Source: Escherichia coli
GTDB lineage: Bacteria > Pseudomonadota > Gammaproteobacteria > Enterobacterales > Enterobacteriaceae
NCBI RefSeq assembly: GCF_030013205.1
Contig: NZ_CP122648.1
Reading direction: 5' to 3' (one strand)
Length of the DNA stretch: 64,000 nt
This document shows positions 7,224 to 57,448 of the stretch, piece after piece (the first letter of the stretch is position 1; each line of letters begins with the position of its first letter). Under the pieces are notes generated by a model. The model was not told the DNA's origin. It saw nothing but the letters and a program-made list of their open reading frames with translations, and searched no databases. Position numbers and translations under genes: made by a program.

Positions 7224-7393
7224 AATGGCTCACTCAAGCTTGCTCACGATTGATTCCAGTAACAAACCGTATTGTGTAATTATTTCTATAGCAGGTCGCT
7301 ATATAGGCTTGTATACATCGAATAATTTGAAAATCAAAGAGATAGGTAGATTTTCACTCGAAAGTAGTATTACGTGTAAGTGAGGAGTAATTA

Positions 7394-7407
7394 TTGTTCG
7401 GTATCAA
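7394..7407. promoter_or_regulatory. FNR-like box TTGTT-N4-ATCAA upstream of dmsA
   Basis: Sequence ttgttcggtatcaa, one mismatch to the TTGAT-N4-ATCAA consensus; dmsABC is known to be FNR-activated. Confidence 0.4.
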
Positions 7408-7419
7408 AGGGAGACAAAA

Positions 7420-7439
7420 AAAGCGCCCGCAGGCGCTTT
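7420..7439. repeat. 20-bp direct repeat aaagcgcccgcaggcgcttt, putative attL core of the P2-like prophage
   Basis: Identical 20-mer occurs again at 28470..28489; together they bracket all phage genes. Confidence 0.55.
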
Positions 7440-7522
7440 AACGTTTCTTGCTCCCCCTGATGATTTACTTATTTTTCAACGAATAAGCCAAAACAGGGGG
7501 AACAAATTAACACAAATTATAA

Positions 7523-8515
7523 CTAATCGATGGACAGTTTATGGACACTTTCAGCCAGCGGATTAAAGTTGATCGCGTCCTGTAAGAAGTCCGGCGAAAA
7601 ATGAGCGTACGTCATTGTTTGCTGAATCGTTGCGTGCCCCAGGATTCGTTGCAACGTAACAATATTTCCGCCATTCATCATAAAGTGTGTGGCAAATGTA
7701 TGACGCATGACATGCGTAGCCTGCCCCTTCGGCAAATCCGGTTTCACCTCCTGAAGAATCTCCCGGAACTTCAGATAATCAACCTGATACAATAACCCCG
7801 TTCGACGGGTTTTAATCAGAGGCACGACCGAATCCGCCACAGGAACCGAACGGGATTTTCCGTTTTTGGTGTTAAAGAACGTCACCCGGTTGCCAACGAT
7901 ATGCTCTCCACGTAGTTCCGATGCTTCACTCCATCGGGCACCAGTAGAAAGACACAGAATGGCAACACGACGCGCATCACCCTCCAGTCGCTCAAGAAGC
8001 CGTTCAATCTCATCATCAGAAAGAAAGGCCATCTCTGTGTTCTGAACTTTCAGTTTTCGTATACCGCGTACAGGGTTCGCGTTGTGAAAGACCTCAGCTT
8101 CAATCAGCACCGTGAACATGGTAGACAGTACGCATAAGTCACGATTAATACTGGACGGCATTAATCCGGCCTGTAATTTCTCTGACCGATATTCAAGCAT
8201 AAATTTTCGCGTCATCTGACTGGCGCGAGGATCTCCCATTTCACGAACAACCTTCCCTAGCCTAACCCTGTAGCTATCCCCGTAAGCCTGATTACGCCCA
8301 TCAAGCATCCACCACGCATCAAGCAGCTCTGATAATCGCCGCTGATCAGCTGGCTTAGCCTGCCATGGCTTGTCATGAAAGTTCTGTAACACATACTTCT
8401 CAAACTCCTGAGCCTTTGATTTCAGGGCAAAGATTTTTCGAATCCGCTTTCCTTCCGCCCCCTGCGGTCTGACATCGACCTGATAACGTCCGTCTTTGAG
8501 TTGCTTAATCGACAT
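7523..8515 (-). CDS. int: P2-type tyrosine integrase
   Basis: Strong similarity to P2 Int as I recall it (SIKQLKDGRY..., LCLSTGARW, HxxRHTFATH, YAHF); ATG at 8515 with GGAGG RBS; the track start at 8530 is TTG. Confidence 0.9.
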   Translation of the reverse strand: MSIKQLKDGRYQVDVRPQGAEGKRIRKIFALKSKAQEFEKYVLQNFHDKPWQAKPADQRRLSELLDAWWMLDGRNQAYGDSYRVRLGKVVREMGDPRASQMTRKFMLEYRSEKLQAGLMPSSINRDLCVLSTMFTVLIEAEVFHNANPVRGIRKLKVQNTEMAFLSDDEIERLLERLEGDARRVAILCLSTGARWSEASELRGEHIVGNRVTFFNTKNGKSRSVPVADSVVPLIKTRRTGLLYQVDYLKFREILQEVKPDLPKGQATHVMRHTFATHFMMNGGNIVTLQRILGHATIQQTMTYAHFSPDFLQDAINFNPLAESVHKLSID

Positions 8516-8584
8516 GATTAGCCCCTCCAACGGATAAATTAACTAAACACTCCTTGCGATATGTAATTCGCTCAATGTGTAGAG

Positions 8585-8926
8585 TCAGCCAACATTGCGG
8601 CCTGATCGGGGTGATTTTTGGGTAATACCGATTGAAACCTGATCGCCCTCCGACTGAATAGATCCATCAAGAGAGAGAGCCGGAGCAATCTGCCCGGCGA
8701 CAGGTAGCGTCTTATCTTTTATTAGCCACAGCATGTATTTTTCAAAGCGATCGACTTGCAGAACCGCCTCAACGATTTTTGCTCTAGCGTTCTTTTGCCC
8801 CGATTCGTAATTCCTTATGGTTGCCAAAGACAACCCAGTAATATCCGCAAACTGCTTTTGTGTTAACCCTTCCGCCTTACGTATCTGACGTAACTTTTTT
8901 GCATAGTCTATTGACAAGATAACCAT
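8585..8926 (-). CDS. phage immunity repressor (CI/C-type, XRE HTH)
   Basis: HTH LTQKQFADITGLSLATIRNYESG; ATG at 8926 preferred over the TTG at 8980; leftward next to int as in P2/186. Confidence 0.7.
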   Translation of the reverse strand: MVILSIDYAKKLRQIRKAEGLTQKQFADITGLSLATIRNYESGQKNARAKIVEAVLQVDRFEKYMLWLIKDKTLPVAGQIAPALSLDGSIQSEGDQVSIGITQKSPRSGRNVG

Positions 8927-8947
8927 TTGAGTATTAACCTCTCGCAC

Positions 8948-8971
8948 AAAGATAACCGTTTGATTATCTTT
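8948..8971. promoter_or_regulatory. inverted repeat aaagataa-N8-ttatcttt in the repressor/early switch region
   Basis: Perfect 8-bp arms between the repressor start and the first rightward gene; candidate operator. Confidence 0.35.
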
Positions 8972-9030
8972 ACAAACCAAAACAAACCATCACAAGGCGC
9001 GACAAGCGCACCAACGCAAGAGGATAACAA

Positions 9031-9552
9031 ATGCGGGACTTCATTGCCGATAAAGAGTTATCTGACCACCAACCACTTCAGGAAAGTGACGCACTCAGCG
9101 GATCCATTGATGCCGCCAACGACGACGAACACGAAGAAAACAAGAAAAAGCGTTCCTACAAAAAAGGAGCGACTTTACGGCTGGATGGTCCGATCGCCGG
9201 GCTTTGCTCTCTGGAAAAAGGCGCGGCATATATTGGGCTAACAAAATCTGCACTGCGCGTAGCCATTCATCGCGGTCAAATGCCGGGACACAAGACGCGC
9301 ACAAACCCGGAAGATGAAAACTCAGACGGAGTATGGTGGTTTAACGCCAAAGAGTGGGACGCACTGGCTGACGAGCTACCGGAACTTGAGCCACCAGAAT
9401 GGCACAACTGGAAAAGTTACTGGACGTATGACCGCCAGAAAAGAAAGTTCTTTCCAGCTAATAAAGAAGACTGCCAGACCATTAACGGTAAGCGAGTTTA
9501 TACAGGCAGAAGCTCAAAACTGAACCAACTCAGAAACAACAGAGGCAACTAA
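9031..9552 (+). CDS. first rightward early gene, possible Cox/Apl-like HTH regulator (unusually long)
   Basis: ATG with GAGGA RBS; HTH-like stretch IGLTKSALRVAIHRGQMPG; occupies the position of cox/apl. Confidence 0.35.
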   Translation: MRDFIADKELSDHQPLQESDALSGSIDAANDDEHEENKKKRSYKKGATLRLDGPIAGLCSLEKGAAYIGLTKSALRVAIHRGQMPGHKTRTNPEDENSDGVWWFNAKEWDALADELPELEPPEWHNWKSYWTYDRQKRKFFPANKEDCQTINGKRVYTGRSSKLNQLRNNRGN

Positions 9553-9556
9553 TCGT

Positions 9557-9979
9557 ATGAAAACAAACACGTCAGATTTCACAATAACTATTTCAAAAAA
9601 TGACCAAGCATTAATTGATAACCTGAAATACCTTGCGGAAAAACATAATAACGGACGAATTGCAATTAATTTACGACACATCACAGGAGTAACAATTGTA
9701 ACCAGTTACTGGCATCTATATCTAATCGCTAAATCAGTACTGGAAAACAAAGATTCTGTTGTCAATGGAAGAGATGTAGATACTCTTCCTGCACAAATCA
9801 AACCGATAGCCTATCAATTGCGTAATCGTTTTAAAAATGAAGGTGGGATTATATTTGACTTTCCCGCAGCTGTAGCCGTGAGCTTCTCTCGGGAGGATAT
9901 ACTTCACTCATTTCGTTTTGCTCTATCAGGTGACGAGACATTATGGCAGCTAGAAGATGCCGGGAGCAGCCCGGCATAA
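9557..9979 (+). CDS. hypothetical protein, AT-rich gene
   Basis: 140-aa ORF, visibly AT-rich relative to neighbours. Confidence 0.45.
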   Translation: MKTNTSDFTITISKNDQALIDNLKYLAEKHNNGRIAINLRHITGVTIVTSYWHLYLIAKSVLENKDSVVNGRDVDTLPAQIKPIAYQLRNRFKNEGGIIFDFPAAVAVSFSREDILHSFRFALSGDETLWQLEDAGSSPA

Positions 9980-9985
9980 ATCAAA

Positions 9986-10177
9986 TTAAAAATCAACCAG
10001 TTGTGTGACAGGTGGGTATTTACGCTGAATTTTGTCAGTTACTAACGCCAGTAATATATGAATCTCTGCGTTTAATGCGTCTTTATCACCCGTCGTTTTT
10101 ACCCTAGGAGGGTTAATGTTATCCAGAGCAGCACTAAGGTCACTCAACAAATTAACAACTTTTTTATCTTCTGACAT
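9986..10177 (-). CDS. hypothetical small protein, lone reverse-strand gene
   Basis: 63-aa ORF with GAGG RBS 5 nt upstream of its start; convergent with the 140-aa gene. Confidence 0.35.
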   Translation of the reverse strand: MSEDKKVVNLLSDLSAALDNINPPRVKTTGDKDALNAEIHILLALVTDKIQRKYPPVTQLVDF

Positions 10178-10312
10178 GAAAACCTCTAAACAATTTAATT
10201 AAACATAAGCCAGGACCTGAACCGGCCAGTCCAAGTCCTAGACACACAAAAAATACCACAAATCAATACAAGGTGACACGAGTACACCTTACCGAAGGTA
10301 CAGAGTTTTAAT

Positions 10313-10663
10313 ATGAAACTACAGCGCAATTCTTCACAGCCGCGCTTCCGCAACGGTGCGGAACGCCACGCTAACCGTTTCGCTACCAGTGCATCACGTA
10401 GCAACTCTCGCTACAGCCTGAGCGAAACACACGCAACGCCGGATGGCTACCCAGTAAAACAAATCGGCGAGCATACCTGGCTGATTGAGAAAGCTGGAAT
10501 TGTGGTCCACAAATGCCCACGCAATCCGTTTACCGGAAACCGCATTTTTGCATTGAGCTGCGGCGACAATCAGTTCGGGCAGGATTTCACATTATACGAA
10601 GCACTTCGCACGGTTGATCGTCTGCTTCGCGGGCAAAGTTTTATTAAACAGGCTGATTTATAA
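10313..10663 (+). CDS. hypothetical protein
   Basis: 116-aa ORF in rightward gene block. Confidence 0.45.
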   Translation: MKLQRNSSQPRFRNGAERHANRFATSASRSNSRYSLSETHATPDGYPVKQIGEHTWLIEKAGIVVHKCPRNPFTGNRIFALSCGDNQFGQDFTLYEALRTVDRLLRGQSFIKQADL

Positions 10664-13668: not shown

Positions 13669-14004
13669 AGCAGTATCAGGATTTTTTAGTATGCCGTTCT
13701 CACAAAAAAACCGCTTGCCATGCCGCAATCAGTCAGGTTACATTTCCGCTGCACCTCATAAAACGGGTGCCGGGATTTCCACCCCGCTGACAACCAAAGC
13801 GCACAACCGCGCCAGCGGTTTTTTTGTGCGTACCGTATCGCCACGTCTTTTTCGCACACGAATTATGGTGGGGCGTATGGGGCCGACTTCGGTCGGGCCG
13901 GGTTCTTTGGTTGCCGGTTGTGGAAACCCTGTACGTCTCACCACCCCGAGTTTTCCACCTCTGGATGGTGAGTTTTCAAAACTTACAACCAAAGAGGCCA
14001 CACC

Positions 14005-14679: not shown

Positions 14680-14967
14680 ATGACAGCAGAGTACATCAGG
14701 GACTGGCAACAACCGCGCCACGCAGTGGGGCGTGAAGGAACGGGGATCCCTGCTCCTGAAGCGGTGGAAGGTGTCGCAACGTCACAGGCCGACATTATCG
14801 ACCGTTTTAATGCGCTGGAAACCCGCCATCAGCAGGACAGCCAGAAAATCACTTTACTGACCACAGAGCTGACAGCACTGAAGGAAAAACTGCGCACGCA
14901 GGACGGCGATCCGCAGAACCGGTTCACCGCAACGGGCGCAGCCTCCGATCAACTGGCTGACTTCTGA
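14680..14967 (+). CDS. hypothetical protein
   Basis: 95-aa ORF. Confidence 0.4.
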   Translation: MTAEYIRDWQQPRHAVGREGTGIPAPEAVEGVATSQADIIDRFNALETRHQQDSQKITLLTTELTALKEKLRTQDGDPQNRFTATGAASDQLADF

Positions 14968-14990
14968 TAAGACAAAGGAGCAAATTTTTT

Positions 14991-15254
14991 ATGAATCTGG
15001 TGATGTCAGATATTACCCGCAACAAGCTGGGTTGCTATATGGCGCAGCAGGCGTCGCTTAACAACATCCCGGTATCTGCACTGGTATCGCGATTTACCGT
15101 GGAACCCTCGGTGTCCGCCATTGCTGCCGCACTGCATGTGCACGGTGTGCAACGCGTGGAAATAATCGAACCCACACAGAATATGGCCATCAGCGACATA
15201 CAGGCGGCGCGCTGTGAGTCATTCACCATCAGCGAAGGTGGACGCAATGAGTAA
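14991..15254 (+). CDS. hypothetical protein
   Basis: 87-aa ORF with AAGGAG RBS; overlaps the gpI start by 8 nt. Confidence 0.45.
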   Translation: MNLVMSDITRNKLGCYMAQQASLNNIPVSALVSRFTVEPSVSAIAAALHVHGVQRVEIIEPTQNMAISDIQAARCESFTISEGGRNE

Positions 15255-19586: not shown

Positions 19587-19756
19587 AAGATAATCATGTG
19601 ACCAATTATTGTAATAATTTTAATGGTATGTTTCTACTGGCTATCCAGCGTGTCTGATGTCCAGTAACAAATCGTTAACACTGGTGCAATCAAATGGTGA
19701 GTGTTAAGACTGGCCACTTATTACCAGGTATGAGGGTATGAGTGGCCAGCATTAAA

Positions 19757-20251
19757 TCAGAACAGCCCTTTAACTGAACTGGCCGCGCTGTTAAGGGATG
19801 ATGTCACTTTATCTTTGAAGCCGGACAGCATATCGCTGAACGATGAGGATTGCAGGCGCTCCCGCAAATCCTCATCACAGCGTTCAAGGGTCAGTGAAAA
19901 TTCTATCTTTTTCGCCTTACCGTAGCGATCAAACTCGGAACGGGTCGTATTCGTTTCGGTCAGGACATACATGCCGTAAATCTGCCCGACGCCATCAATA
20001 AGAGGCCAGGGGCGTCCTGTATACGCCTGCGTGGTCAGCAGCGACAGCGACACTTCGCCACCTGTAATTTCAGGATAAAGCACACCAGAAAGAACGATGC
20101 GATCATCACCTGCACCGATATACTGCCAGCTTGCTGAACGGTTAACGCGTTCATTTTTCACATGCCGCCAGCTTTTGTTTTGCTGTAACTGCTGATGCGG
20201 CAGCGTGCGCAGCTCAAAAACAAACATGCCGTAGATCATCATCATGGCCAT
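19757..20251 (-). CDS. P2-like tail protein U
   Basis: 164-aa ORF following T on the minus strand. Confidence 0.7.
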   Translation of the reverse strand: MAMMMIYGMFVFELRTLPHQQLQQNKSWRHVKNERVNRSASWQYIGAGDDRIVLSGVLYPEITGGEVSLSLLTTQAYTGRPWPLIDGVGQIYGMYVLTETNTTRSEFDRYGKAKKIEFSLTLERCDEDLRERLQSSSFSDMLSGFKDKVTSSLNSAASSVKGLF

Positions 20252-46517: not shown

Positions 46518-46690
46518 TGTCAGTTATCATCTTCGGTTACGGTTATCGGCAGAACGCCCTGCCGCTGACAAGAGCTTATTTGCCTGACCAATCTACTCCA
46601 CATGATAGATAACTATCATTTATATCATTTAGTTAATTAGTCTTTATTTTTCATTATGTTGCAAATAACAACCCCGTCAAAAACAGTGAT

Positions 46691-46715
46691 ATTAACTACA
46701 CCATTAACTACACCG
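46691..46715. repeat. island-end repeat attaactacaccattaactacaccg (tandem 12-mers)
   Basis: Near-identical 25-mer at 57068..57092; both followed by CGAACAA-type motifs. Confidence 0.6.
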
Positions 46716-47303
46716 CTTCACGAACAATATCGAACAACCGCGAACAAAGATCAACACGCTTTAATCATTATCATTTTCCGGCTATCCGTCATGAAGCTGG
46801 TGGATGATCTGCGTGGTGATTTCCACCATTCAGAGCAGGGGCGGTCATCATGACCATGCCATAACAAAAACCCCATATTCGTGGTTTTTCTGTGTCGGGG
46901 CTATTCTGCTGTTGCCGTGCTGGTGGATATTCTCCGGTATGCGGCTCCCCATATCGGCATCAGGCCCACCAGCGTGAAGCGTTTTTCATTTTTCGCGGGT
47001 ATAAAAAATCGATGGGGCGGGCAGTCCTGAAGACGTCAGGGTACGGAGATTTGACCCGCCCCTCCCTGTGCATGAGCACAATAAGTAACCGAAGGCGGAA
47101 TTCCGCCCTCGGTACTTACATATGAGAAACGATATTTCTTCCACCGATACCCTTTATTTGGGTATTGCGAGTAAGCCCCAAAATCTGGGTGTTACTCTTA
47201 CTACCCAAACTACGGGTAGTTTCCGTAGTTTCATGGTCGAGTTGCAAATCTGCAACTCACCCACCAGCCAACGCAATTTTGCGTTATCGGGAATATCAGC
47301 AAG

Positions 47304-47591
47304 TTACCGCCGCAGTCGTTCCGGCTTCTTCCACTGGTAAGTATTTTTCGCGCTCTCCCTCCGTTGTTGAGAACGGCGACGGTATGCCAGCAACTCAAGG
47401 ACTCTGGTTCGTATGTTGCGCATATCCACGCCGTTAAGCTCAATACCATCACGGCGCATCACCTCAGCAACAACACGCGCGTAATTTTCAGCGGTGACTG
47501 TATCCGGCTGCGCGGCCTGTTCGTCAGCCAACTGGCTGATTCCACCAGCACAGCGGATTAATCGCAGTATTTCAGATTCGGTCATTATCAT
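47304..47591 (-). CDS. hypothetical protein downstream of terS-like gene
   Basis: 95-aa ORF, ATG overlaps the upstream stop. Confidence 0.5.
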   Translation of the reverse strand: MIMTESEILRLIRCAGGISQLADEQAAQPDTVTAENYARVVAEVMRRDGIELNGVDMRNIRTRVLELLAYRRRSQQRRESAKNTYQWKKPERLRR

Positions 47592-48073
47592 GCCTGTTTT
47601 GCGACCTCATTCACTACGTCATTTTTTACCATCCGGCTGATAATCTGATTACACAAATCGTCAATAATTGACTGCACTCTGTTTACTGCCATCGGTTTAA
47701 GCCCGGCATCACGTGCCAGAATATTGGGGAGTTTTGCCAGTTCCTCGCTTACGATTTCCCCCCATATAGCCATCTCTTTTCGCACATCATCGGCGGGTAT
47801 GAGTTGCGCCGTTTCCTGTTCGAACTTGAGGCGTTCACGTTCGGACTGATACCAGGCCTTACGGTCTTGTGGCTCCATTTCTTCCAGTGATGCCGGAACG
47901 GGAAGATCAAGAAAACAGGTCAGAATGTCAGTCACCCGATAGAGTTTCAGCTTGTCATGCCCTCCGGCTGGCTGGATGTTTTTCAGCCTTGCCGCCGCAG
48001 TCTGACGACATATTCCCGCTATCGCCGCCAGTTGATTAATGTTCAGCATCAGATTTTTCAGTTCTCGATCCAT
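47588..48073 (-). CDS. Nu1-like small terminase subunit / packaging-redirection (Rpp-like) protein
   Basis: ATG at 48073 (MDRELKNLMLNINQLAAIAGICRQTAAARL...), N-terminal wHTH plus coiled coil resembling lambda Nu1; the track start at 48160 is TTG. Confidence 0.55.
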   Translation of the reverse strand: MDRELKNLMLNINQLAAIAGICRQTAAARLKNIQPAGGHDKLKLYRVTDILTCFLDLPVPASLEEMEPQDRKAWYQSERERLKFEQETAQLIPADDVRKEMAIWGEIVSEELAKLPNILARDAGLKPMAVNRVQSIIDDLCNQIISRMVKNDVVNEVAKQA

Positions 48074-48226
48074 ACCCGCTCCAGAATGTTTTAAACATGC
48101 ATCTTGCGAACAACTTTCAGAAGAGGTCAAAAAATGCGCTATATGTTGAGCATAAAACAAGCAAAATTAACATGCCAAAAATAAAAATACTTAAAATTCA
48201 ATACAATATGAAGATGATGATGACGA

Positions 48227-48322
48227 ATGAAAATGCAAAAACTAGCCTTTTTCCGCGCCGCTCCCGCCCCGTGGCAGACCACTCCACCGGGAGGACCCGT
48301 AAAAAAGGCGGCTGTCGCCGCC
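48227..48322. repeat. conserved intergenic element A (about 72 nt shared with element B, then a GC hairpin)
   Basis: About 85 percent identical to 50761..50832; hairpin ggcggctgtcgccgcc at 48307..48322. Confidence 0.6.
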
Positions 48323-48329
48323 CTTGTTG

Positions 48330-50243
48330 TCATGCTCCACTCGATTTCAGTAATCCGCGATAATCGAGGGCCGCGACACCTGCATCTATGCGCACTTTCC
48401 AGGCGACACCATCAACAGTAAAGCCCACCTGCTCCTCAAGATATGGCGTATCCATACCATCAAGATAAGCGACTTCTATTGTGTCCATCCCCTTAGCTGC
48501 GGCTACATACCATTCCTTGCTATTGGCCTTATCAAGACGTGGCTCAACAATTACTTCTGCCATATCTTTCACCACGTTAATGATGCCGGGGTTCTGATTG
48601 ATAGTGCTCTCATCACCAACCGGAAAGACTGATGACGATGACAGAATGGCGCGACGCGCGGCAGATTCCAGCGCGGCAGGGACCAGAACAAAAGCAGGGG
48701 TAATATTCAGTGAGTCGCCGTTAGCATCCTCCTGGAGGCGCATCAGCTTACGGGCTTCATCAAGCCCCACCATGTCCATATCCTTCGCAATAAGATTTTT
48801 ATGATCGGCATGGAATAACGCTTTACCATCCGTAAATTTGCCGTTGCTGGTTAACAGAAGATAAACCAGATTACCTACTGTTCTGGCGGCCGCACGCCCC
48901 ATCGCCATGGGGATTGTAGTTAACTGGGTCAGGTCATCGTTGATAATGGCCTGACGGGTAACAGAAAAAATATTACCGTATGTGGCCAGCGCAATAGGTA
49001 CACCTTTATCGCTGGTGGTGATGTATTTATATTCCGCACCTTCCGGTACTTTATCCAGCTTTGAAAAACCATTCAGACCAACGCGCTTTGCTTCATGAAA
49101 GTTTGAAAGCGATCCGGTACGCGTCCATTTCTGGAACGTTTCGCCGCTGTCCTGCCAGCCTTTCAGCACTGATTTTTCAGCACCACCAGCCAGAATATGA
49201 GAAAAATCGCTGCTGCTGTGTGTGAAAGCTGCATTAACGACCTGCGAGCGATTTAAAAAACTGCCAACACTGATACCACGATCAGTTAGTGATGCCTGGG
49301 CCATTTCAAAAAGGCTCATCATCGCGTAAGGATTTCCCCGCTCTGGGCGTTCATACCCAAGACGAGAATAAAGCCCCTGACGAATTGCATCGCCTGTTAT
49401 GTTCCCGTTACCGGCATAAATATGAGTCGGGATATTTTTATTGGATGGCGTGGACTCGCGCCCCAGCTCGTTCAACAACTTTTCACGGGCCATCTCCGGT
49501 GTACATGATGCATCCTCCAGGCACGCCATTTTGATCCCGTCGTAACGACTGCCGAACAGGCTAAACACTTCACTTATTCCGTTGATGCGCTTCTGTTCAT
49601 TACCAGCAATATTGGCTGCTCCCTGTGGCGGGGTAATCATTCCTTTAATGGTTTCAGGCATGTGTGAAAAATCTCCTGTGCGTTTCGATTCAATTCGCGC
49701 CATTGCTGTGACAGATGGCAACAATTCATCAGCAAAACCGTGCTTAAGGCATTCTTTCCCGTCCATCCAGGTTTCATCTTCCAGCATGGCGGTAATTTCC
49801 TGTGCTGATTTGCCCGTTTTTCTGGCATAAGCAGGGACTAACACGGTTTCCACCTTATCCAGCAAATCAGCATAATCACGCATATCACCAGCATTTCCGC
49901 CAGAGATACCCCACGGCTTATGTATCATCATCATGGCGTTTTCCGGCATCACAACACGATCGCCAGCCATTGCGACAACCGAAGCCATTGAAGCCGCAAC
50001 ACCATCGATATAAACCGTAATTTCTGCCGGATGATTCCGTAACAGGTTATAGATGGCGATGCCTTCAAACACGTCACCACCTGGCGAATGGATCCGCAGG
50101 TCGATATGTGAGACATCGCCCAGGGCTTTCAGGTCTTCCGCAAACTGCTTCGCGGTAATACCGAAGCCGCCAATTTCTTCATAGATGGATATTTCTGCCG
50201 CTCCGCGAACACCCAGCGCCTTAATGGTGTACCAGTGATTCAT
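48330..50243 (-). CDS. prohead protease (ClpP/S49-like) fused to HK97-fold major capsid protein
   Basis: Single 637-aa ORF; N-terminal serine-protease-like region (HSPGGDVFEGIAIYN...), C-terminal roughly 400 aa capsid-like. Confidence 0.8.
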   Translation of the reverse strand: MNHWYTIKALGVRGAAEISIYEEIGGFGITAKQFAEDLKALGDVSHIDLRIHSPGGDVFEGIAIYNLLRNHPAEITVYIDGVAASMASVVAMAGDRVVMPENAMMMIHKPWGISGGNAGDMRDYADLLDKVETVLVPAYARKTGKSAQEITAMLEDETWMDGKECLKHGFADELLPSVTAMARIESKRTGDFSHMPETIKGMITPPQGAANIAGNEQKRINGISEVFSLFGSRYDGIKMACLEDASCTPEMAREKLLNELGRESTPSNKNIPTHIYAGNGNITGDAIRQGLYSRLGYERPERGNPYAMMSLFEMAQASLTDRGISVGSFLNRSQVVNAAFTHSSSDFSHILAGGAEKSVLKGWQDSGETFQKWTRTGSLSNFHEAKRVGLNGFSKLDKVPEGAEYKYITTSDKGVPIALATYGNIFSVTRQAIINDDLTQLTTIPMAMGRAAARTVGNLVYLLLTSNGKFTDGKALFHADHKNLIAKDMDMVGLDEARKLMRLQEDANGDSLNITPAFVLVPAALESAARRAILSSSSVFPVGDESTINQNPGIINVVKDMAEVIVEPRLDKANSKEWYVAAAKGMDTIEVAYLDGMDTPYLEEQVGFTVDGVAWKVRIDAGVAALDYRGLLKSSGA

Positions 50244-50449
50244 TGCTCCCCCCCAGATGCAAAACCATTCTTATCAAGCCACGCGTTAACCGCGTGTCTG
50301 ACAATCTGCGCCGCACCTGGTAATGGTTGGTCAGGATGATGATTTATGTGGTCGATCCTGTACTGCTTAAGGCGCATAACGGTCTGCGCATCCAGATGAA
50401 CGGAACCACCTTTTACCTCGCCTGTGTTCAGGTCGTTAATACAATTCAC
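50240..50449 (-). CDS. hypothetical small protein (non-ATG start)
   Basis: 69-aa ORF with GTG start and AGAGGA RBS; stop overlaps the capsid start. Confidence 0.4.
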   Translation of the reverse strand: MNCINDLNTGEVKGGSVHLDAQTVMRLKQYRIDHINHHPDQPLPGAAQIVRHAVNAWLDKNGFASGGEQ

Positions 50450-50760
50450 AGTAACTTCCTCTTACTGACTAAACTGCGCGCATTATTGATCGATAAAAGT
50501 GGTAGATAAACATATTTCTATCATAAAAATAGATTAATCAGATTCAGACACAAAAAAGCCGGAGAGAATCCGGCATAAATATCCCGCCATCTGAACACGT
50601 TTTGCACAGGCAACTCCATCTGGCAGGTGAAAAACAAATTTATTTATATATTTCAATTAATTGCAAACTGGTCTAATGACAGGGAGAAAAAAATATTGTA
50701 CAGGTGAAAACAGAAATAACTTTTAATTATCAATAAATTACTACACATGCTGCCGCCGCC

Positions 50761-50858
50761 ATGAAAATGCAAAAACCAGCCTTTTTCCGCGACGCTCCCG
50801 CCCCGTGGCAGGTCACTACACCGGGAGGACCCATAAAAAAGCCGGATTGCTCCGGCTT
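50761..50858. repeat. conserved intergenic element B (copy of element A core, different terminal hairpin)
   Basis: atgaaaatgcaaaaaccagcctttttccgcg...ccgggaggaccc then gccggattgctccggc hairpin with T-run on the minus strand. Confidence 0.6.
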
Positions 50859-50872
50859 CTGTTACTCGTTGC

Positions 50873-51295
50873 TTAAAACGGTATGTTATCCCCGTACGGA
50901 TCATCATTTCCCGCCTGTTGTTTTGCTCTGCTCAGTGCATCAGTAGCCTGCCCCTGTTGGCCTTTTTTGCCGCCCGGTCGCGCCGTTCTCGCACTGATTA
51001 CGCTGTCTGCGATAACCTGCCAGCCCTGCCGCGTCTCCCCGTTCTGTCCGGTCCACTGGCTCACCTGCATGTTACCCGCCACGCTCAGGAGTTCACCCTT
51101 GCGGTGCTTTGCCAGTGCTTCGGCCTGTCTGCCAAACGCCAGGACGGATAACCACATCGTCGCCGTTCCGTCATCTGCCTGGCTGCACGGAAGTGGGACC
51201 GCCATACTCGCCATCGTCATTTGTGTACCCTTGCTGGTGGTCTTTAACTGCGGGTCAGCCACCAGCCGCCCGTAAGCCGCTATCTGTGCTGTCAT
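50873..51295 (-). CDS. single-stranded DNA-binding protein (SSB-like)
   Basis: 140 aa, OB-fold-like N-terminus and acidic C-terminal tail DDPYGDNIPF like the SSB DDDIPF tail. Confidence 0.65.
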   Translation of the reverse strand: MTAQIAAYGRLVADPQLKTTSKGTQMTMASMAVPLPCSQADDGTATMWLSVLAFGRQAEALAKHRKGELLSVAGNMQVSQWTGQNGETRQGWQVIADSVISARTARPGGKKGQQGQATDALSRAKQQAGNDDPYGDNIPF

Positions 51296-51537
51296 GCTGT
51301 CTGCTCTCCGGTTTTAACGTTGATGGTTGTCACCTGTTCCGCTTCGGCAATCTCCCGTTCTGTCAGCGTGGCAAAGTTTGCAGCTGCCGTTGTCATGAAT
51401 GAGCTAATCAGTTCGGGATGTGCTTTCGCATATCCTTCCCCGGCGTTGCGGTCGATGATTTTTATCGACACCCTTAACCAGTGTTCCGTCAAATCAAGGG
51501 CGTGCGATTGTGATTTTTTTGTGTGCTTCGCTGTCAT
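51292..51537 (-). CDS. hypothetical protein
   Basis: 81-aa ORF overlapping the SSB start. Confidence 0.45.
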   Translation of the reverse strand: MTAKHTKKSQSHALDLTEHWLRVSIKIIDRNAGEGYAKAHPELISSFMTTAAANFATLTEREIAEAEQVTTINVKTGEQTA

Positions 51538-51583
51538 AGGCTTTATCTCACAGCAGTAAATTAAAATTTTTGCGTTTTAACCC

Positions 51584-51812
51584 TTCACCTGTTCACCTTT
51601 TGATATTTTATCTTTTAATTCATAATGTTAAGGGGTGAACAGTTTCACAAAAACTATTCACCAACTGTTCACCACTGTTCACCCTTGAAGCTCAATAAAC
51701 AATCAAAAAGGTGAACAGTGAATAGTTTGGTGAACAGTTCATAAATAACTGTTCACCCTATAACATACTGATACAAAAGATATTTATGACAGGGTGAACA
51801 GTGGTGAACAGT
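51584..51812. repeat. iteron array: at least 9 copies of TGTTCACC/GGTGAACA in both orientations (P4 ori/crr-like)
   Basis: Octamers counted at 51590, 51634, 51666, 51676, 51710, 51729, 51750, 51793, 51803, with TATTCACC variants; immediately downstream of the alpha-like gene. Confidence 0.7.
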
Positions 51813-51824
51813 TATTCCATAAGT

Positions 51825-53642
51825 TTAATTTTTGCTATCGTCATTAGTGACCGATACACATGATGGCATCCAGTCTTCTGATTCCTCCGTCAGTGTCACG
51901 TTTGAACGCAAACCGTGCTTCGTTTTCCGTTTCATATACTCCCTGCCATATTCCGCCATTGCCCCCGGCATATCTTTACCGAAGCGCGTCAGTGTTACAG
52001 GTTTACCAAACCCATGTGCCCTCATATAAGCCAGATAGGCATGATAGAGATACCTGCGTGGGCTGAATGGCACAATTTCAGCATTACCCACTAACAGGCC
52101 ATCACACATTACCGACGCCATGAGATAGCCGCAGAAGTCCACCAGCGAATCCCCCTCTCGCTTTATCGCCAGTGCTTCTTCAGATTTCTGCTGCTCATAT
52201 AACAGGCGTCTGGCTTCGTCCTGGTCAGCAAACCGTGTAAGCAGATGGCGAATCACTACCGCCAGCTCACCTTCTATTTTTTCCGCCAGCATTGGATCGC
52301 GTTCGTTCTCCGGTACAACTTCCGAAAAATTGAATATCACCCGACGACGTGAGATCCCCCCGCTGCGGTCACTGAATGACATGGCGTTATTGTTAACCGC
52401 CAGCACTACTGCCGGAATACGCGTTGAGTAGGGGGCTTTGTGTTTCGGGTCAATTGCCACCTTGTCACCGCCTGTAATGGCCTTAATTCCTGCCCCATCA
52501 CCAGCGTAGCGGGTCATATCCGGCATGATAATCAGCGAAAAGCCAACCACTAACGCGCGTTCCCTTGCATCTTCCAGCGCCTTCATGCTTGCCGATACTG
52601 TGTTGGCCTTACCCGCCAGCATGGTGCAAATCTCCGCCATCACGCTTTTACCACTTCCCCCTGGACCTGTTACCTCAATGAATAACTGCCAGTCGTACCG
52701 GTTCGCCAGCACCATGAATAATGCAGCCAGTACGCGATCCGCCTTGCGGTCATTCTCAGCCACCGAACGGCGTAACCACTTCCAGAAATTCGGCGCATGT
52801 GTTGCCAGCGTTTCCCCCTCTGCTGGTGGGCTGAAAGGTAATTCACTGGCAATTAACAACCAGTCGTTTTTGTTATGCTCCCGAAAATTACCTGTTCTGG
52901 TATCAAATACCCCGTTACTGAATCCAATCAGGTTACGGGCTGTATTCCCCATAACAGGCAAACTTAACTTCATGGTATCGACCGCCGATTTAATGGCGTT
53001 CTGCGAATAGCTGATCTCCGCATCAATGAAAATCTGTGCCATAGCTCGCTGTAATTCTTTATCCTGTACTGGCTCCCATACAACGCCGTTGTAATGGTGA
53101 ACAGTGTCAGAGTCAGCATGAATCGCCAGTTCACCGCCATAATGTGCCAGGAGAACTTCGCCGCGTTGACTTGCTCCCATCTGGTTAAGCGCCAGTGATG
53201 AAGCGTTATCGTCTTTTACCCGCTCTTTTTTCTTTACAGGCAGTTCAACTACCTTTTTCTTTTCCGCCTGCTCTGCCCGTTCACGTTCCAGATATTCGCG
53301 CCAGTTCTCCCGTTTCTGGCTGTGCATTCCTTCAGGGTAATAATCAGCATCCCTGACACCTGCCGCTGCCAGTTTCTGCCCGATGGTATTAACAAGCCCC
53401 GGACGCAATAACCCCGCCTGGTAGAGACGCACGCGATAGCGTCCGTCCGGTACGATTTGCAGGTTGTCCAGTTCGGCAAGTTGTTGCTCTCCAAGCCAGA
53501 CAGGTGGCACGTTATCGCCAGCCAGTCGCCCGTCCTGTTCCTGCCACTGCTTCGCATGTGCCCACGCATCACTACCCGCAAAAATGATGACTTCCGTCAT
53601 TTTGTCACGCGGCTGGTGTTTTAAATTTGGCGCTTTTTTCAT
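51825..53642 (-). CDS. P4 alpha-like replication protein (D5_N / SF3 helicase, primase-helicase family)
   Basis: Walker A GPGGSGKS; ATG at 53642 with GGAGAG RBS; the track start at 53657 is GTG. Confidence 0.8.
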   Translation of the reverse strand: MKKAPNLKHQPRDKMTEVIIFAGSDAWAHAKQWQEQDGRLAGDNVPPVWLGEQQLAELDNLQIVPDGRYRVRLYQAGLLRPGLVNTIGQKLAAAGVRDADYYPEGMHSQKRENWREYLERERAEQAEKKKVVELPVKKKERVKDDNASSLALNQMGASQRGEVLLAHYGGELAIHADSDTVHHYNGVVWEPVQDKELQRAMAQIFIDAEISYSQNAIKSAVDTMKLSLPVMGNTARNLIGFSNGVFDTRTGNFREHNKNDWLLIASELPFSPPAEGETLATHAPNFWKWLRRSVAENDRKADRVLAALFMVLANRYDWQLFIEVTGPGGSGKSVMAEICTMLAGKANTVSASMKALEDARERALVVGFSLIIMPDMTRYAGDGAGIKAITGGDKVAIDPKHKAPYSTRIPAVVLAVNNNAMSFSDRSGGISRRRVIFNFSEVVPENERDPMLAEKIEGELAVVIRHLLTRFADQDEARRLLYEQQKSEEALAIKREGDSLVDFCGYLMASVMCDGLLVGNAEIVPFSPRRYLYHAYLAYMRAHGFGKPVTLTRFGKDMPGAMAEYGREYMKRKTKHGLRSNVTLTEESEDWMPSCVSVTNDDSKN

Positions 53643-53938
53643 TTCGGCTCTCTCCACGCGGCAATCATGTTTTTCAGTTCCTGCAGTTTTTTATCCACAT
53701 CCACACGTGACACATGGTTATTTCTGGAAGTCGGGATTTCCCGCCGGAATCTGCTAATAAAGATCTCCACGTTCAGCGAACTATGAAATGAATAGCCATC
53801 ACGAATAAAATACACACGGTCAAACATCAGTTCTTTTACCGTTACTCTGTTACCGTTCTTATCCAGATAAATAGCGCCGGGGATAATTTTGGGGTGTGCA
53901 TAACCGCTGGCAGTCAAGCCAGATAAATATGTTCTCAT
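53639..53938 (-). CDS. hypothetical protein
   Basis: 99-aa ORF, overlapping start/stop with the alpha-like gene. Confidence 0.45.
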   Translation of the reverse strand: MRTYLSGLTASGYAHPKIIPGAIYLDKNGNRVTVKELMFDRVYFIRDGYSFHSSLNVEIFISRFRREIPTSRNNHVSRVDVDKKLQELKNMIAAWREPK

Positions 53939-53944
53939 GATTAT

Positions 53945-54265
53945 TTATCCCCGATTTGAATCAGTATTCGCTTTCTTTATGGCATTTAATGCATCTGTGG
54001 CATTTTCAATGGTGCACCGTAACGAAATATCAAACTGCCCAAGCATTGCCAGTAACAAACCGATATTACCCATATCAATGCGCATGGCCTTTTCGTCATA
54101 GTCCTCATTTTCTGACGCATGCCACATCAGGCTACCAATTGACGCAACAGCCATTGATATATTGTCAGTAGCCCCATCAGCAGCGGAATAAACCTTTTTA
54201 GCAATATCATGCTCACAGTTAAAATGCGGATTAATCAGGTACTGGTAATTTGACATATCAGGCAT
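53945..54265 (-). CDS. hypothetical protein
   Basis: 106-aa ORF. Confidence 0.45.
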   Translation of the reverse strand: MPDMSNYQYLINPHFNCEHDIAKKVYSAADGATDNISMAVASIGSLMWHASENEDYDEKAMRIDMGNIGLLLAMLGQFDISLRCTIENATDALNAIKKANTDSNRG

Positions 54266-54461
54266 GGCACACCCCCTGACGAATACGGGCGGCGAATACC
54301 ATCACGTAGCCAGCCGGGGATTGCTGGCGTGCTTCCTGTTCACTGGTGGCCTCAATGGTAATCACGCGCGGTTGTGCCGTGCTCAGGGCGATAAAACGCC
54401 AGATGTATTTATTCAGGTTGTACGAGTCCCGCCCTTGCGGGTGTCTGGTATAATTTCTCAT
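54258..54461 (-). CDS. hypothetical small protein (real part of a spurious 302-aa track ORF)
   Basis: Internal ATG at 54461 with GAGG RBS (MRNYTRHPQGRDSYNLNKYIW...). Confidence 0.3.
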   Translation of the reverse strand: MRNYTRHPQGRDSYNLNKYIWRFIALSTAQPRVITIEATSEQEARQQSPAGYVMVFAARIRQGVCHA

Positions 54462-54540
54462 AGCTGCCTCGATACTGTTGCTATCGTTGGTGGTTAGACG
54501 CCCTGCATGTGTGCCACCACTGCGGGGCGTTGTTGCTTGG

Positions 54541-54630
54541 TGCATCGCACCATTCGTTTTTAACCTATCAGCAAGTGAATCGCACTTCAAGCCTTTCTCT
54601 GAAATTTTTTTTGTGTATACTGAATCGCAC
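54541..54630. promoter_or_regulatory. three direct repeats TG(C/A)ATCGCAC plus a TATACT -10-like box upstream of the RHH gene
   Basis: Copies at 54541, 54576 and 54621; TATACT at 54616..54621. Confidence 0.4.
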
Positions 54631-54651
54631 CAACTTAGAGAGGATTCAGTA

Positions 54652-54831
54652 ATGGCAACAGGTTCAACAAATAATAAGTCGCAACAGTTAAATGCCAGAT
54701 TCCCGCATGATGTTGTTGCAGACTTAGAAAAAAATTTAGATGAAGGTGAAAGCAAGGCGCAATTTATAGTTACTGCCGTTAAAGGCGAGATCAAACGCCG
54801 CCAGCGCCGCAAGGCCAAAGAGCAGGAGTAA
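54652..54831 (+). CDS. ribbon-helix-helix (Arc/CopG-like) DNA-binding protein
   Basis: 59 aa; N-terminal beta-strand-like LNARFPHDVVADL; GAGAGG RBS. Confidence 0.55.
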   Translation: MATGSTNNKSQQLNARFPHDVVADLEKNLDEGESKAQFIVTAVKGEIKRRQRRKAKEQE

Positions 54832-54873
54832 CCATCACCAGCGCCGTGGTGTGAGTAACTACGGCGCATTGCT

Positions 54874-55062
54874 ATGCAGGACAACACAATGACCGATAAA
54901 GAATTGACCAAAACATTATCACCGGCACGGAAAAGACGGCGCAGAAAGATAGAGCATGAATCAGAAAGATTCGCGCCATGTGCTTTTGCTCTTGAGAAAT
55001 TCCTTAAAGAGCACAGGAAAAAGCTCTCGTTGCAAACCTTGGAACGAACCAAATCTGACTGA
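54874..55062 (+). CDS. hypothetical small basic protein
   Basis: 62-aa ORF followed by hairpin ggcgaccgcccccggtcgcc with T-run. Confidence 0.3.
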   Translation: MQDNTMTDKELTKTLSPARKRRRRKIEHESERFAPCAFALEKFLKEHRKKLSLQTLERTKSD

Positions 55063-55176
55063 TCACATTGCCCACCAGCCGCAAATGTGGCATTGTTGGT
55101 GATGCGTTCAAGTTTAGTGTGTATCCATTGGCGACCGCCCCCGGTCGCCTTTGTTTTATATGTCATATGCTCCCCT

Positions 55177-55386
55177 TTACGCTGCCTTGCCTGAATTAAT
55201 GCGATCCCGGCTTTTAACCCATTCCATAACCTCGGACAGCAGCCAACCTACAGAACGACCGCCCAGATTACGGCGTGACGGGAAATTCCCTTTTTTCTCC
55301 AGTTCATAGCGTGTAGTGCGACACACTCCAGTTAACTTACGACATTCATCCTCACGGATTACGCGATCTTCATTTATTTCACGCAT
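55177..55386 (-). CDS. alpA: AlpA-family transcriptional regulator
   Basis: 69 aa, MREINEDRVIREDECRKLTGVCRTTRYELEKKGNFP... typical AlpA/Xis HTH. Confidence 0.8.
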   Translation of the reverse strand: MREINEDRVIREDECRKLTGVCRTTRYELEKKGNFPSRRNLGGRSVGWLLSEVMEWVKSRDRINSGKAA

Positions 55387-55805
55387 ACAAAAACCTACAT
55401 AAAAAATTACGTATATAAACTTTTCTCTTAGCTGTAGATATATGAGATCGGATATTACTTAGATTCTTTTTTCACCTCTTAAATTAAAAACACAACCTTG
55501 CTAAAGGCTTTGTTCGCTAAGGTTCGTAGAAGCTCGTTAGTGTTTAAAATCGTGTCACGAGTTTTTAAGCGATGCAACAAAAAATGTCGTTACTTGGCAT
55601 TACGCTTGAATTATCTCATTAAAAACAAATAGATAAACCATCAAGTGTTGGAACAATCAAGAAACAGAGAATAAAAGTTCAGAAGAAGACATTCCAATTT
55701 TTTGATGGTTGACATATATAAAGCGAAGATATTTGCAGATATTTTCCGATATTCTACGATTTATTCACGGCTGTAATCTCTTAAAGAAAAAACAGCCGTA
55801 ATTTG

Positions 55806-57053: not shown

Positions 57054-57067
57054 TTCCGGTCATCAAA

Positions 57068-57092
57068 ATTAACTACACCATTGACTACACCG
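57068..57092. repeat. island-end repeat attaactacaccattgactacaccg
   Basis: 24 of 25 identical to 46691..46715; 15 bp beyond the integrase start. Confidence 0.6.
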
Positions 57093-57448
57093 TGCATCGT
57101 ACAAGGGCAAACAGCGACGAACAAGGGCGAACAAGAAAAACGAAATTTTCCTTTATAATCATAGCAATAAATGAGATAGATACACCACGACGAACACCCG
57201 CGAACACTAACTGATAAATAACTATCATCTATCGTTGGCATCAGCGACATCTGTCACATTCCTGTCAATAGCGTTAACTGCTTCAAATTTTTGATTCATA
57301 CCTGCCCCCTGGCCCCTGTCAAATGCTTGACGGCTCGCCCTAATTCTCTAAATTGTATTTCTAGAGTTGACGAGGTTTTGAACAGCCCCCTCTCTGACCC
57401 CGGTTTATTCCATCTTACTTGTATAAGATTTGCGAAGGATGTCGAAGC

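What the first reader, a model, noticed from the sequence alone, without database searches (positions are those of the whole stretch)
9557..10177. AT-rich convergent gene pair inside the prophage early region
A 140-aa AT-rich gene on the plus strand is immediately followed by a 63-aa gene on the minus strand with a good RBS. The stops face each other 7 bp apart and the pair interrupts an otherwise uniformly rightward operon. The composition contrast suggests a separately acquired moron; convergent small pairs in prophage early regions are often toxin-antitoxin or exclusion modules. I see no recognisable domain.
Basis: inference. Interest (0 to 1): 0.5.

Follow-up and report, generated by a model that had tools for sequence, protein, structure and literature searches.

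The report
Orphan convergent gene pair in prophage
A 743-bp AT-rich cassette in a P2-like E. coli prophage carries two real tail-to-tail genes with no known relatives, one read with the phage's early lytic genes and one small gene with its own promoter and terminator; its function is untested.

Summary
ORF140 (9557-9979, +) and ORF63 (9986-10177, -) lie tail to tail, 6 nt apart. They sit in a 743-bp cassette (9553-10295) with 38.6% GC, against 48.5% in the flanks.

A sister prophage with the same integrase, repressor and Cox loses homology exactly at the cox stop. It carries a different small gene there. Most relatives have nothing in that slot.

Both ORFs are real genes. Nine diverged versions (21-71% amino-acid identity) occur in E. 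coli and Salmonella P2-like prophages. All lie downstream of cox or apl, are always paired, with stop codons -4 to +6 nt apart, and have dN/dS of 0.14-0.46.

The small gene is a complete leftward transcription unit:
- an extended -10 element (TGTGnTATnTT) 66-72 nt upstream of the ATG in all nine;
- a 5' hairpin;
- a Shine-Dalgarno sequence;
- a terminator-like hairpin buried in the 3' end of the large gene.

Neither protein matches Pfam, PHROGs, NCBIfam, PADLOC, PDB, or P2/186 early proteins. The AlphaFold model has no structural neighbour.

My best reading, which is inferred, is a pair split between life-cycle phases. ORF63 would be made in the lysogen and ORF140 early in lytic growth, with one countering the other. 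It is not a member of any known toxin-antitoxin or defence family.

The parts
9553..10295 (.). Accessory cassette (743 bp, 38.6% GC) holding both genes and the small gene's control elements
   Evidence: Homology with sister prophage EC581 (L028) runs from window 8901 to 9552 at 98.5% and resumes at 10296. EC581 has 318 bp of unrelated DNA with a 68-aa ORF in between.
9031..9552 (+). Context: Cox-family gene (173 aa), first gene of the early lytic operon and left boundary of the cassette
   Evidence: Pfam Phage_Cox E=6e-7; phrog_23196 E=3.5e-114. RefSeq annotates it as 'Cox family DNA-binding protein'.
9557..9979 (+). ORF140 (140 aa, pI 6.4), the large gene. It starts 4 nt after the cox stop, so it is presumably read from the early promoter with cox.
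9957..9977 (-). Terminator-like hairpin of the ORF63 transcript (8-bp stem, tail CUUCUAG), inside the last codons of ORF140
   Evidence: Fold of the 80 nt after the ORF63 stop. A GC-rich hairpin sits 10-35 nt after the small gene's stop in all eight loci folded. Six of the seven Salmonella copies have clearer U-tracts (UUUUCCCC, UUCCUUUU, UUUUUCCC).
9986..10177 (-). ORF63 (63 aa, pI 5.6, not hydrophobic), the small convergent gene
   Evidence: Nine diverged orthologues of 59-63 aa share MNEDEK(I/V)(I/V)xLL...AL... and KYP motifs. dN/dS is 0.14-0.46. No profile or PDB hit.
10183..10187 (-). Shine-Dalgarno AGAGG, 5 nt upstream of the ORF63 ATG
   Evidence: Read directly from the sequence.
10210..10241 (-). 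14-bp hairpin at the predicted 5' end of the ORF63 mRNA
   Evidence: Found by the scan. RNA fold energy -21.5 kcal/mol, z = -3.0 against shuffles. Equivalent hairpins with different sequences occur in L003 (z -3.7) and L027 (z -6.2). Those in L005 and L015 are weaker and not significant.
10250..10260 (-). Extended -10 promoter element TGTGGTATTTT for ORF63 (the -10 hexamer TATTTT is at 10255-10250). The start site is predicted near 10243.
   Evidence: The motif TGTGnTATnTT lies 66-72 nt upstream of the small gene's ATG in all nine loci. It occurs only once in the whole 64-kb window on both strands.
10313..10663 (+). Context: DUF4761 gene, the first conserved early gene to the right of the cassette
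   Evidence: Pfam DUF4761 E=7.8e-71. It is present in 1415 of 5426 complete E. coli genomes, against 270 for the pair.

Best explanation
Shown: this is a real two-gene accessory cassette (9553-10295) inserted between cox and the first conserved early gene of a P2-like prophage. The prophage is of the PhiECO5 type found in UTI89. The copy in the window is a deletion remnant. Both genes code for proteins from small families known only in E. coli and Salmonella P2-like prophages. The two genes always occur together, tail to tail.

Inferred from the anatomy: ORF140 has no promoter of its own in this copy. It starts 4 nt after the cox stop, so it is made only when the early promoter fires, on infection or derepression. 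ORF63 is a self-contained leftward unit: an extended -10 sigma-70 promoter, a 5' hairpin, a Shine-Dalgarno sequence, the ORF, and a terminator-like hairpin hidden in the last codons of ORF140. It can therefore be expressed in the lysogen, while the repressor C keeps the early operon off.

The early polycistronic transcript must run antisense through the whole ORF63 unit to reach the replication genes. Lytic transcription should therefore silence ORF63 by promoter occlusion, polymerase collision and double-stranded RNA formation. ORF63 transcription should likewise damp leaky early transcripts. The two products would thus be made in opposite life-cycle states.

Most likely mechanism: the two products counter each other. 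In one version, ORF63 is a prophage-expressed exclusion factor and ORF140 is the phage's own immediate-early escape factor, following the sieB/esc logic. In the other, ORF140 is a host-directed early effector that ORF63 keeps harmless in the lysogen. The targets are unknown.
For: Cassette boundaries and absence from relatives. Composition. Nine diverged loci (window, L003, L005, L015, L027, L037, L040, L042, L043) all carry the large and small gene with stop codons -4 to +6 nt apart. The four subfamilies of the large protein match the four subfamilies of the small protein, even though the promoter modules upstream of the small gene have been swapped between them. Purifying selection acts on both genes (L005 against L027: dN/dS 0.23 and 0.14). 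The extended -10 motif is present in 9 of 9 loci and is unique in the window. The 5' hairpins. The embedded terminator-like hairpins. No plus-strand terminator lies inside the cassette, and no sequence is shared with the C/Cox switch region. Morons with their own promoter and terminator, expressed from prophages, are established knowledge. So are exclusion genes paired with a self-escape function (P22/lambda sieB-esc; BstA and its aba element).
Against: There are no expression data, no interaction data and no phenotype. The strict pairing could reflect only zero-distance physical linkage, since the small gene's terminator lies inside the large gene. In L005, a 225-aa protein with an ORF140-like N-terminal domain sits next to a different 103-aa convergent gene, with no ORF63-type gene of its own subfamily. 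A strict one-to-one antidote relationship would not predict this. Database variants show that each gene can be damaged: an ORF140 frameshift (P0014), an ORF63 C-terminal frameshift (P0008) and a joint deletion (P0012). A 63-aa soluble protein is unusually small for an exclusion factor. In the window copy the terminator's U-tract is weak (CUUCUAG). The hairpins in L005 and L015 are not significant on their own.
Confidence: 0.35

Rival explanations
1. The two genes are functionally independent and merely travel together. ORF63 is an ordinary single-gene moron (a lysogenic-conversion or exclusion factor). ORF140 is an unrelated non-essential early gene. They co-occur only because they abut and ORF63's terminator lies inside ORF140.
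For: The same promoter-plus-hairpin module drives unrelated leftward genes (103 aa) in L003 and L005. This shows that leftward small genes are a general habit of this region. The L005 225-aa fusion protein lacks a matching small gene. The terminator is embedded in the large gene.
Against: Pairing holds in 9 of 9 loci, down to 21-27% identity, with matching subfamilies. Meanwhile recombination has swapped the DNA immediately on the other side of the small gene. A terminator needs only about 30 nt, not a conserved 136-149-aa ORF under purifying selection.
Confidence: 0.25
2. The cassette tunes the lysis-lysogeny decision, in the manner of lambda cII/OOP or 186 cII/pE. A leftward promoter placed just beyond the first early genes sends antisense transcription against the early operon, and possibly on towards C and int. 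This would stabilise lysogeny, with ORF140 acting as a regulator.
For: The position matches lambda cro-cII-(oop) and 186 apl-cII-pE. Convergent transcription is unavoidable given the layout. In the window, the terminator's U-tract is weak and the simple scan finds no strong leftward terminator before cox or C.
Against: ORF140 has no helix-turn-helix and no similarity to 186 CII (hhalign probability 0.1%). ORF63's protein sequence is itself conserved, so it is not just an antisense RNA. The promoter looks constitutive. Six of the seven Salmonella copies folded have terminator-like hairpins with clearer U-tracts right after the small gene. A sister phage with the same int and repressor and a 98.5%-identical cox works without the cassette.
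Confidence: 0.15
3. It is a conventional toxin-antitoxin or abortive-infection defence system. Both genes are expressed in the lysogen, and the system kills or arrests the cell when another phage infects.
For: [quoted passage not shown] In L005 a promoter-like site and a terminator-like site lie between cox and the ORF140 homologue, so the large gene may be transcribed independently in some phages.
Against: No PADLOC, Pfam or NCBIfam match to any toxin, antitoxin or defence protein. The genes are convergent, not in an operon. In the window ORF140 has no room for its own promoter inside the cassette. The accessions are absent from the supplementary files held as text for a functional-selection screen and a machine-learning defence predictor.
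Confidence: 0.12
4. One or both ORFs are chance open frames in AT-rich DNA and are not genes.
For: There are no database names, no domains and very few homologues.
Against: Frame, length and motifs are conserved in nine diverged loci, with non-synonymous change well below synonymous change.
Confidence: 0.01

Closest known systems
Phage morons (accessory units with their own promoter and terminator, such as P2 old, tin and Z/fun)
   Same: AT-rich relative to the phage. Absent from close relatives and sitting between conserved genes. The small gene has its own promoter-like and terminator-like elements and points the same way as the lysogenic genes.
   Different: It lies in the slot just after cox, not in the described gpA-gpQ or Z/fun hotspots. 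It has two genes, one of which is plugged into the early lytic operon. The terminator is hidden inside the partner gene. Both protein families are unannotated.
P22/lambda sieB-esc, and BstA with its aba element (a prophage exclusion function plus the phage's own escape function)
   Same: The proposed logic: a product made in the lysogen, paired with a partner made or used during the phage's own lytic growth, with antisense transcription involved.
   Different: No sequence similarity. Esc is an in-frame internal product of sieB and aba is a DNA element, whereas here there are two separate convergent genes. No phenotype is known.
Lambda cII/OOP RNA and phage 186 cII/pE
   Same: A leftward promoter just beyond the first early genes, with a transcript that converges on the early operon and overlaps the 3' end of the gene after cro, apl or cox.
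   Different: ORF140 is not a CII-like DNA-binding protein. The leftward transcript encodes a conserved protein. The cassette is dispensable in sister phages.
Type I toxin-antitoxin pairs with convergent 3' overlap (txpA/RatA, bsrG/SR4)
   Same: Tail-to-tail units whose transcripts must overlap.
   Different: Neither product is a small hydrophobic peptide, and the 'antisense' partner is a protein-coding gene under purifying selection.
Type II toxin-antitoxin modules
   Same: The sizes (about 140 aa and about 63 aa) and the tight pairing.
   Different: The genes are convergent with separate promoters. There is no toxin or antitoxin domain and no recognisable DNA-binding antitoxin.

Membership tests
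Phage moron | Absent from closely related phages and located between conserved genes | tested here: met
   Sister prophage EC581 and four other DUF4761-carrying P2-likes lack it; the breakpoints are at 9552 and 10296.
Phage moron | Nucleotide composition differs from the surrounding phage genome | tested here: met
   GC 38.6% against 48.5%; GC3 about 30% against about 51%.
Phage moron | Own promoter and own terminator | tested here: met
   For ORF63 only, and by sequence alone: the extended -10 motif in 9 of 9 loci and a terminator-like hairpin after the stop in 8 of 8 loci folded. ORF140 has neither in the window.
Phage moron | Expressed from the repressed prophage | not testable with these tools
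   Needs RNA data from a lysogen.
Type II toxin-antitoxin | Two co-directional genes in one autoregulated operon | tested here: not met
   Convergent genes, with a separate promoter for ORF63.
Type II toxin-antitoxin | Toxin and antitoxin belong to known superfamilies, with a DNA-binding antitoxin | tested here: not met
Type II toxin-antitoxin | Toxicity of one product neutralised by the other | not testable with these tools
   Requires cloning and growth assays.
Type I toxin-antitoxin (convergent class) | Small hydrophobic toxin peptide and a non-coding antisense RNA antitoxin | tested here: not met
   ORF140 GRAVY is -0.19 and ORF63 is -0.16. ORF63 is protein-coding with dN/dS of 0.14-0.46.
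Lambda/186 CII establishment module | Helix-turn-helix CII activator homologous to the lambda or 186 protein | tested here: not met
   hhalign of the ORF140 family against 186 CII gives probability 0.1%. No HTH profile hit is shared by the family; one member gives a lone HTH_63 hit at E=0.19.
Lambda/186 CII establishment module | Leftward activator-dependent promoter reading into the repressor and integrase genes | tested here: inconclusive
   A leftward promoter-like element exists, but it looks constitutive and is followed by a terminator-like hairpin. Read-through is untested.
Conserved P2/186 early proteins (Orf78, B, Orf80-83, CII, Fil, Dhr, Tum and others) | Sequence homology | tested here: not met
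   tblastn against 50,697 phage records finds only three near-identical E. coli records. hhalign probabilities are 3.3% or less.
Catalogued anti-phage defence systems | Match to a defence-system protein model | tested here: not met
   PADLOC finds no family for either protein at E<=1.

The most novel reading that the evidence does not exclude
A previously undescribed class of phage module: a two-protein antagonist pair wired by convergent transcription, so that one partner exists only in the lysogen and the other only in the first minutes of lytic growth. It would act either as an exclusion-plus-self-escape system against rival P2-like phages or P4-type satellites, or as a timer for a host-takeover effector. 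Both proteins would have new folds. The further plus/minus pairs seen in Salmonella relatives would form arrays of such modules just downstream of cox.
Probability: 0.25. Interest if true: 0.65.

Novelty: new variant of a known kind. Interest (0 to 1): 0.45.

Why it matters
The cassette sits in about 5% of complete E. coli genomes, including the model uropathogen UTI89 and ST131 strains. Despite that, both proteins are complete orphans. If the two products do counter each other across the lysogenic/lytic divide, the module would be a compact new example of how temperate phages use gene orientation as a switch. It could be a new source of phage-phage or phage-satellite exclusion functions, outside the two well-mined P2 hotspots. 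It also marks the slot just after cox as a cargo site that hotspot surveys have barely touched. If the genes prove unrelated in function, the finding reduces to an ordinary moron plus an ordinary orphan early gene.

Tried and rejected
- **Profile searches.** I searched both proteins, and all members of both families, against Pfam, PHROGs, NCBIfam and PADLOC. Nothing was shared across a family. The weak DUF1408/phrog_5450 hit (E=0.007) appears in only 1 of 13 members, so I rejected it as chance.
- **Homologue searches.** The word-indexed search of 5.8 billion proteins found only near-identical E. coli copies. The exhaustive phmmer search and a profile search found only about ten diverged clusters, those named being from Salmonella or E. 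coli.
- **Species-representative genomes.** Two scans found nothing. One alignment was too diverged to use.
- **RNA families.** Rfam has no family for the promoter-plus-hairpin module. The Salmonella module has no match in the phage collection or in the window.
- **Regulatory sites.** I found no shared operator-like words between the C/Cox switch region and the ORF63 promoter region. I saw no LexA box on reading the ORF63 upstream sequence.
- **P2 and 186 early proteins.** hhalign was negative for all of them.
- **Literature.** The text search for the two window accessions, and supplement searches of two defence-discovery papers that also included the UTI89 accession, returned nothing.
- **Within-E. 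coli variation.** There were too few substitutions (11 sites) for a selection test, so I used the diverged pairs instead.

Full report
**Where the window comes from.** Window 5400-46623 is essentially identical to E. coli ETEC4079 (NZ_CP122643.1). The finding lies in a P2-like (Peduoviridae) prophage next to dmsA. Its genes in order are:
- integrase, 7523-8530 (-);
- HTH repressor, 8585-8980 (-);
- a long Cox-family protein, 9031-9552 (+);
- ORF140;
- ORF63;
- DUF4761, DUF4754 and further rightward early genes.

The UTI89 copy was catalogued as prophage PhiECO5 (PMC3448106). The copy in the window is a remnant. Fragments of the replication, scaffold and capsid genes are fused around 14680-15113.

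**Checking the observation.** The two ORFs are at exactly the stated coordinates. Six nucleotides lie between their stop codons. ORF63 has an AGAGG Shine-Dalgarno sequence 5 nt from its ATG. ORF63 is the only leftward annotated gene between cox and at least 13637. The cassette has 38.6% GC against 48.5% for the rest of the early region. GC3 is about 30% in the two ORFs against about 51% in cox and DUF4761.

**It is an inserted cassette.** Prophage EC581 sits at the same dmsA site. It has the same integrase and repressor proteins and a cox that is 98.5% identical in DNA. It aligns up to the cox stop (9552) and again from 10296. In between it carries 318 bp with a 68-aa two-helix membrane ORF. 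In four other DUF4761-carrying P2-likes, the gene after the repressor abuts DUF4761. The pair is present in 270 of 5426 complete E. coli genomes, at 99% identity or more in 268 of them. DUF4761 is present in 1415. Published surveys place the P2 hotspots between gpA and the portal gene and within the tail genes. [quoted passage not shown]

**Both ORFs are real genes, and they form a unit.** Large-database searches found only near-identical E. coli copies. An exhaustive phmmer search and a profile search added about ten diverged clusters; those with source names are Salmonella enterica or E. coli. I recovered the genomic context for nine diverged versions: the window, L003, L005, L015, L027, L037, L040, L042 and L043. 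In every one:
- a 136-149-aa homologue lies in a P2-like early region downstream of cox or apl;
- it is followed immediately by a convergent 59-63-aa homologue of ORF63;
- the stop codons are -4 to +6 nt apart.

Identities to the window proteins are 21-33% for the large gene and 27-44% for the small one. dN/dS is 0.20-0.41 for the large gene and 0.14-0.46 for the small one. The four subfamilies of the large protein pair one-to-one with the four subfamilies of the small protein.

**The small gene is a complete leftward transcription unit.** An extended -10 element, TGTGnTATnTT, lies 66-72 nt upstream of the ATG in all nine loci. It occurs only once in the 64-kb window on both strands. It is followed within a few nucleotides by a hairpin. 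In the window this is at 10210-10241 (-21.5 kcal/mol, z = -3.0). L003 and L027 have stronger hairpins with different sequences. L005 and L015 have weaker ones that are not significant alone. Ten to thirty-five nucleotides after the small gene's stop, inside the last codons of the large gene, every locus folded has a GC-rich hairpin. Most of these are followed by a U-rich tract. In the window the hairpin is at 9957-9977, with a weak tail. No plus-strand terminator lies in the cassette, so early transcription should read through. The promoter modules have been swapped among subfamilies. The same module also precedes unrelated 103-aa leftward genes in L003 and L005.

**What the proteins are.** Their functions are unknown.
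- No profile hit is shared by the family in Pfam, PHROGs, NCBIfam or PADLOC.
- There is no PDB sequence relative.
- There is no similarity to any P2 or 186 early protein.
- The ORF140 model built from a 13-sequence alignment is moderate (pLDDT 64.8, pTM 0.59). It shows an alpha-beta-beta-alpha unit twice.
- ORF63 is small, soluble and slightly acidic.

**How it most likely works (inference).** ORF140 begins 4 nt after the cox stop, and the cassette holds nothing upstream of it. It should therefore be made only from the early promoter. ORF63 can be made in the lysogen from its own promoter. The early polycistronic RNA must cross the entire ORF63 unit in antisense. The two are therefore expected to be expressed in opposite states: lytic transcription silences ORF63, and ORF63 transcription damps leaky early transcripts.

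The strict pairing and the matching subfamilies suggest that the products also act on each other. In one version, ORF63 is an exclusion factor and ORF140 is the phage's own early escape function, which is the sieB/esc logic. In the other, ORF140 is an early effector held in check by ORF63. I give this family of models about 0.35.

**Evidence against, and the rivals.** Pairing may simply reflect zero-distance linkage together with the embedded terminator. In L005 a 225-aa protein carries an ORF140-like domain but sits beside a different 103-aa convergent gene. Rare database variants damage either gene.
- **Independent hitchhiking genes:** about 0.25.
- **A cII/OOP-like regulator of the lysogeny decision:** about 0.15. 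It is weakened by the absence of any HTH or CII similarity, by protein-level selection on ORF63, and by sister phages that lack the cassette.
- **A conventional toxin-antitoxin or abortive-infection system:** about 0.12. There is no family match and the layout is wrong.
- **Chance ORFs:** excluded.

**Verdict.** The moron reading is supported. The toxin-antitoxin or exclusion reading is untested, and membership of any known toxin-antitoxin or defence family is not met. This is a new variant of a known kind: an accessory prophage cassette with an unusual, conserved convergent two-gene design and two orphan protein families.

Noticed in passing
window 14680-15113: The prophage in the window is a deletion remnant. 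Annotated fragments of the replication gene, the GPO scaffold gene and the major capsid gene are fused. The gpA, portal, terminase, capsid, lysis and baseplate genes are missing. The UTI89 copy (PhiECO5) is recorded as about 37 kb (911187-948481).
   Followed up: partly
window 13751-13948: Rfam isrK (64 bits) and C4 antisense RNA (80 bits) lie side by side, next to an 'ash family' pseudogene. This is a P1/P7-style c4 antisense immunity element inside a P2-like early region. The same pair occurs in L003 at 9808-9996.
   Followed up: no
window 7314-7448: The sRNA STnc130 (136 bits) lies between dmsA and the prophage integrase.
   Followed up: no
window 46624-57211: A 10.6-kb insertion absent from ETEC4079. 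It carries an integrase, a D5-type primase/helicase, an SSB, a ClpP-protease-capsid fusion protein and a DUF1441 protein. It looks like a capsid-forming PICI-type phage satellite.
   Followed up: partly
window about 19620-20170 and about 28070-28210: Other accessory genes of the same prophage. A leftward serine acetyltransferase lies after the tail-fibre assembly gene, in the Z/fun slot. A Hok/Gef toxin gene lies at the right end next to serS.
   Followed up: no
L003 6766-7804; L005 6001-6937; L040 3708-5017; L042 3754-5068; L043 4654-5727: Salmonella relatives carry further convergent pairs of a large rightward gene and a small leftward gene right after the ORF140/ORF63-type pair (259+/103-, 225+/103-, 248+/166-, 260+/168-, 259+/108-). 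In L003 and L005 these have the same promoter-plus-hairpin module (GGCTGCGAACGGCGAGCAGCTTGTGCTATGTT). The region looks like an array of such pairs. All of the proteins scanned (the L003 and L005 pairs) are orphans.
   Followed up: partly
L028 2693-2899 (E. coli EC581); L004 5672-5848: The slot after cox can instead hold a small rightward membrane protein: 68 aa in EC581, and 58 aa in L004 ahead of the pair.
   Followed up: no
window 10244-10249: Most E. coli alleles have one or two extra A residues in the A-run between the predicted -10 element and the 5' hairpin of ORF63. This is length variation at about the predicted transcription start.
   Followed up: no
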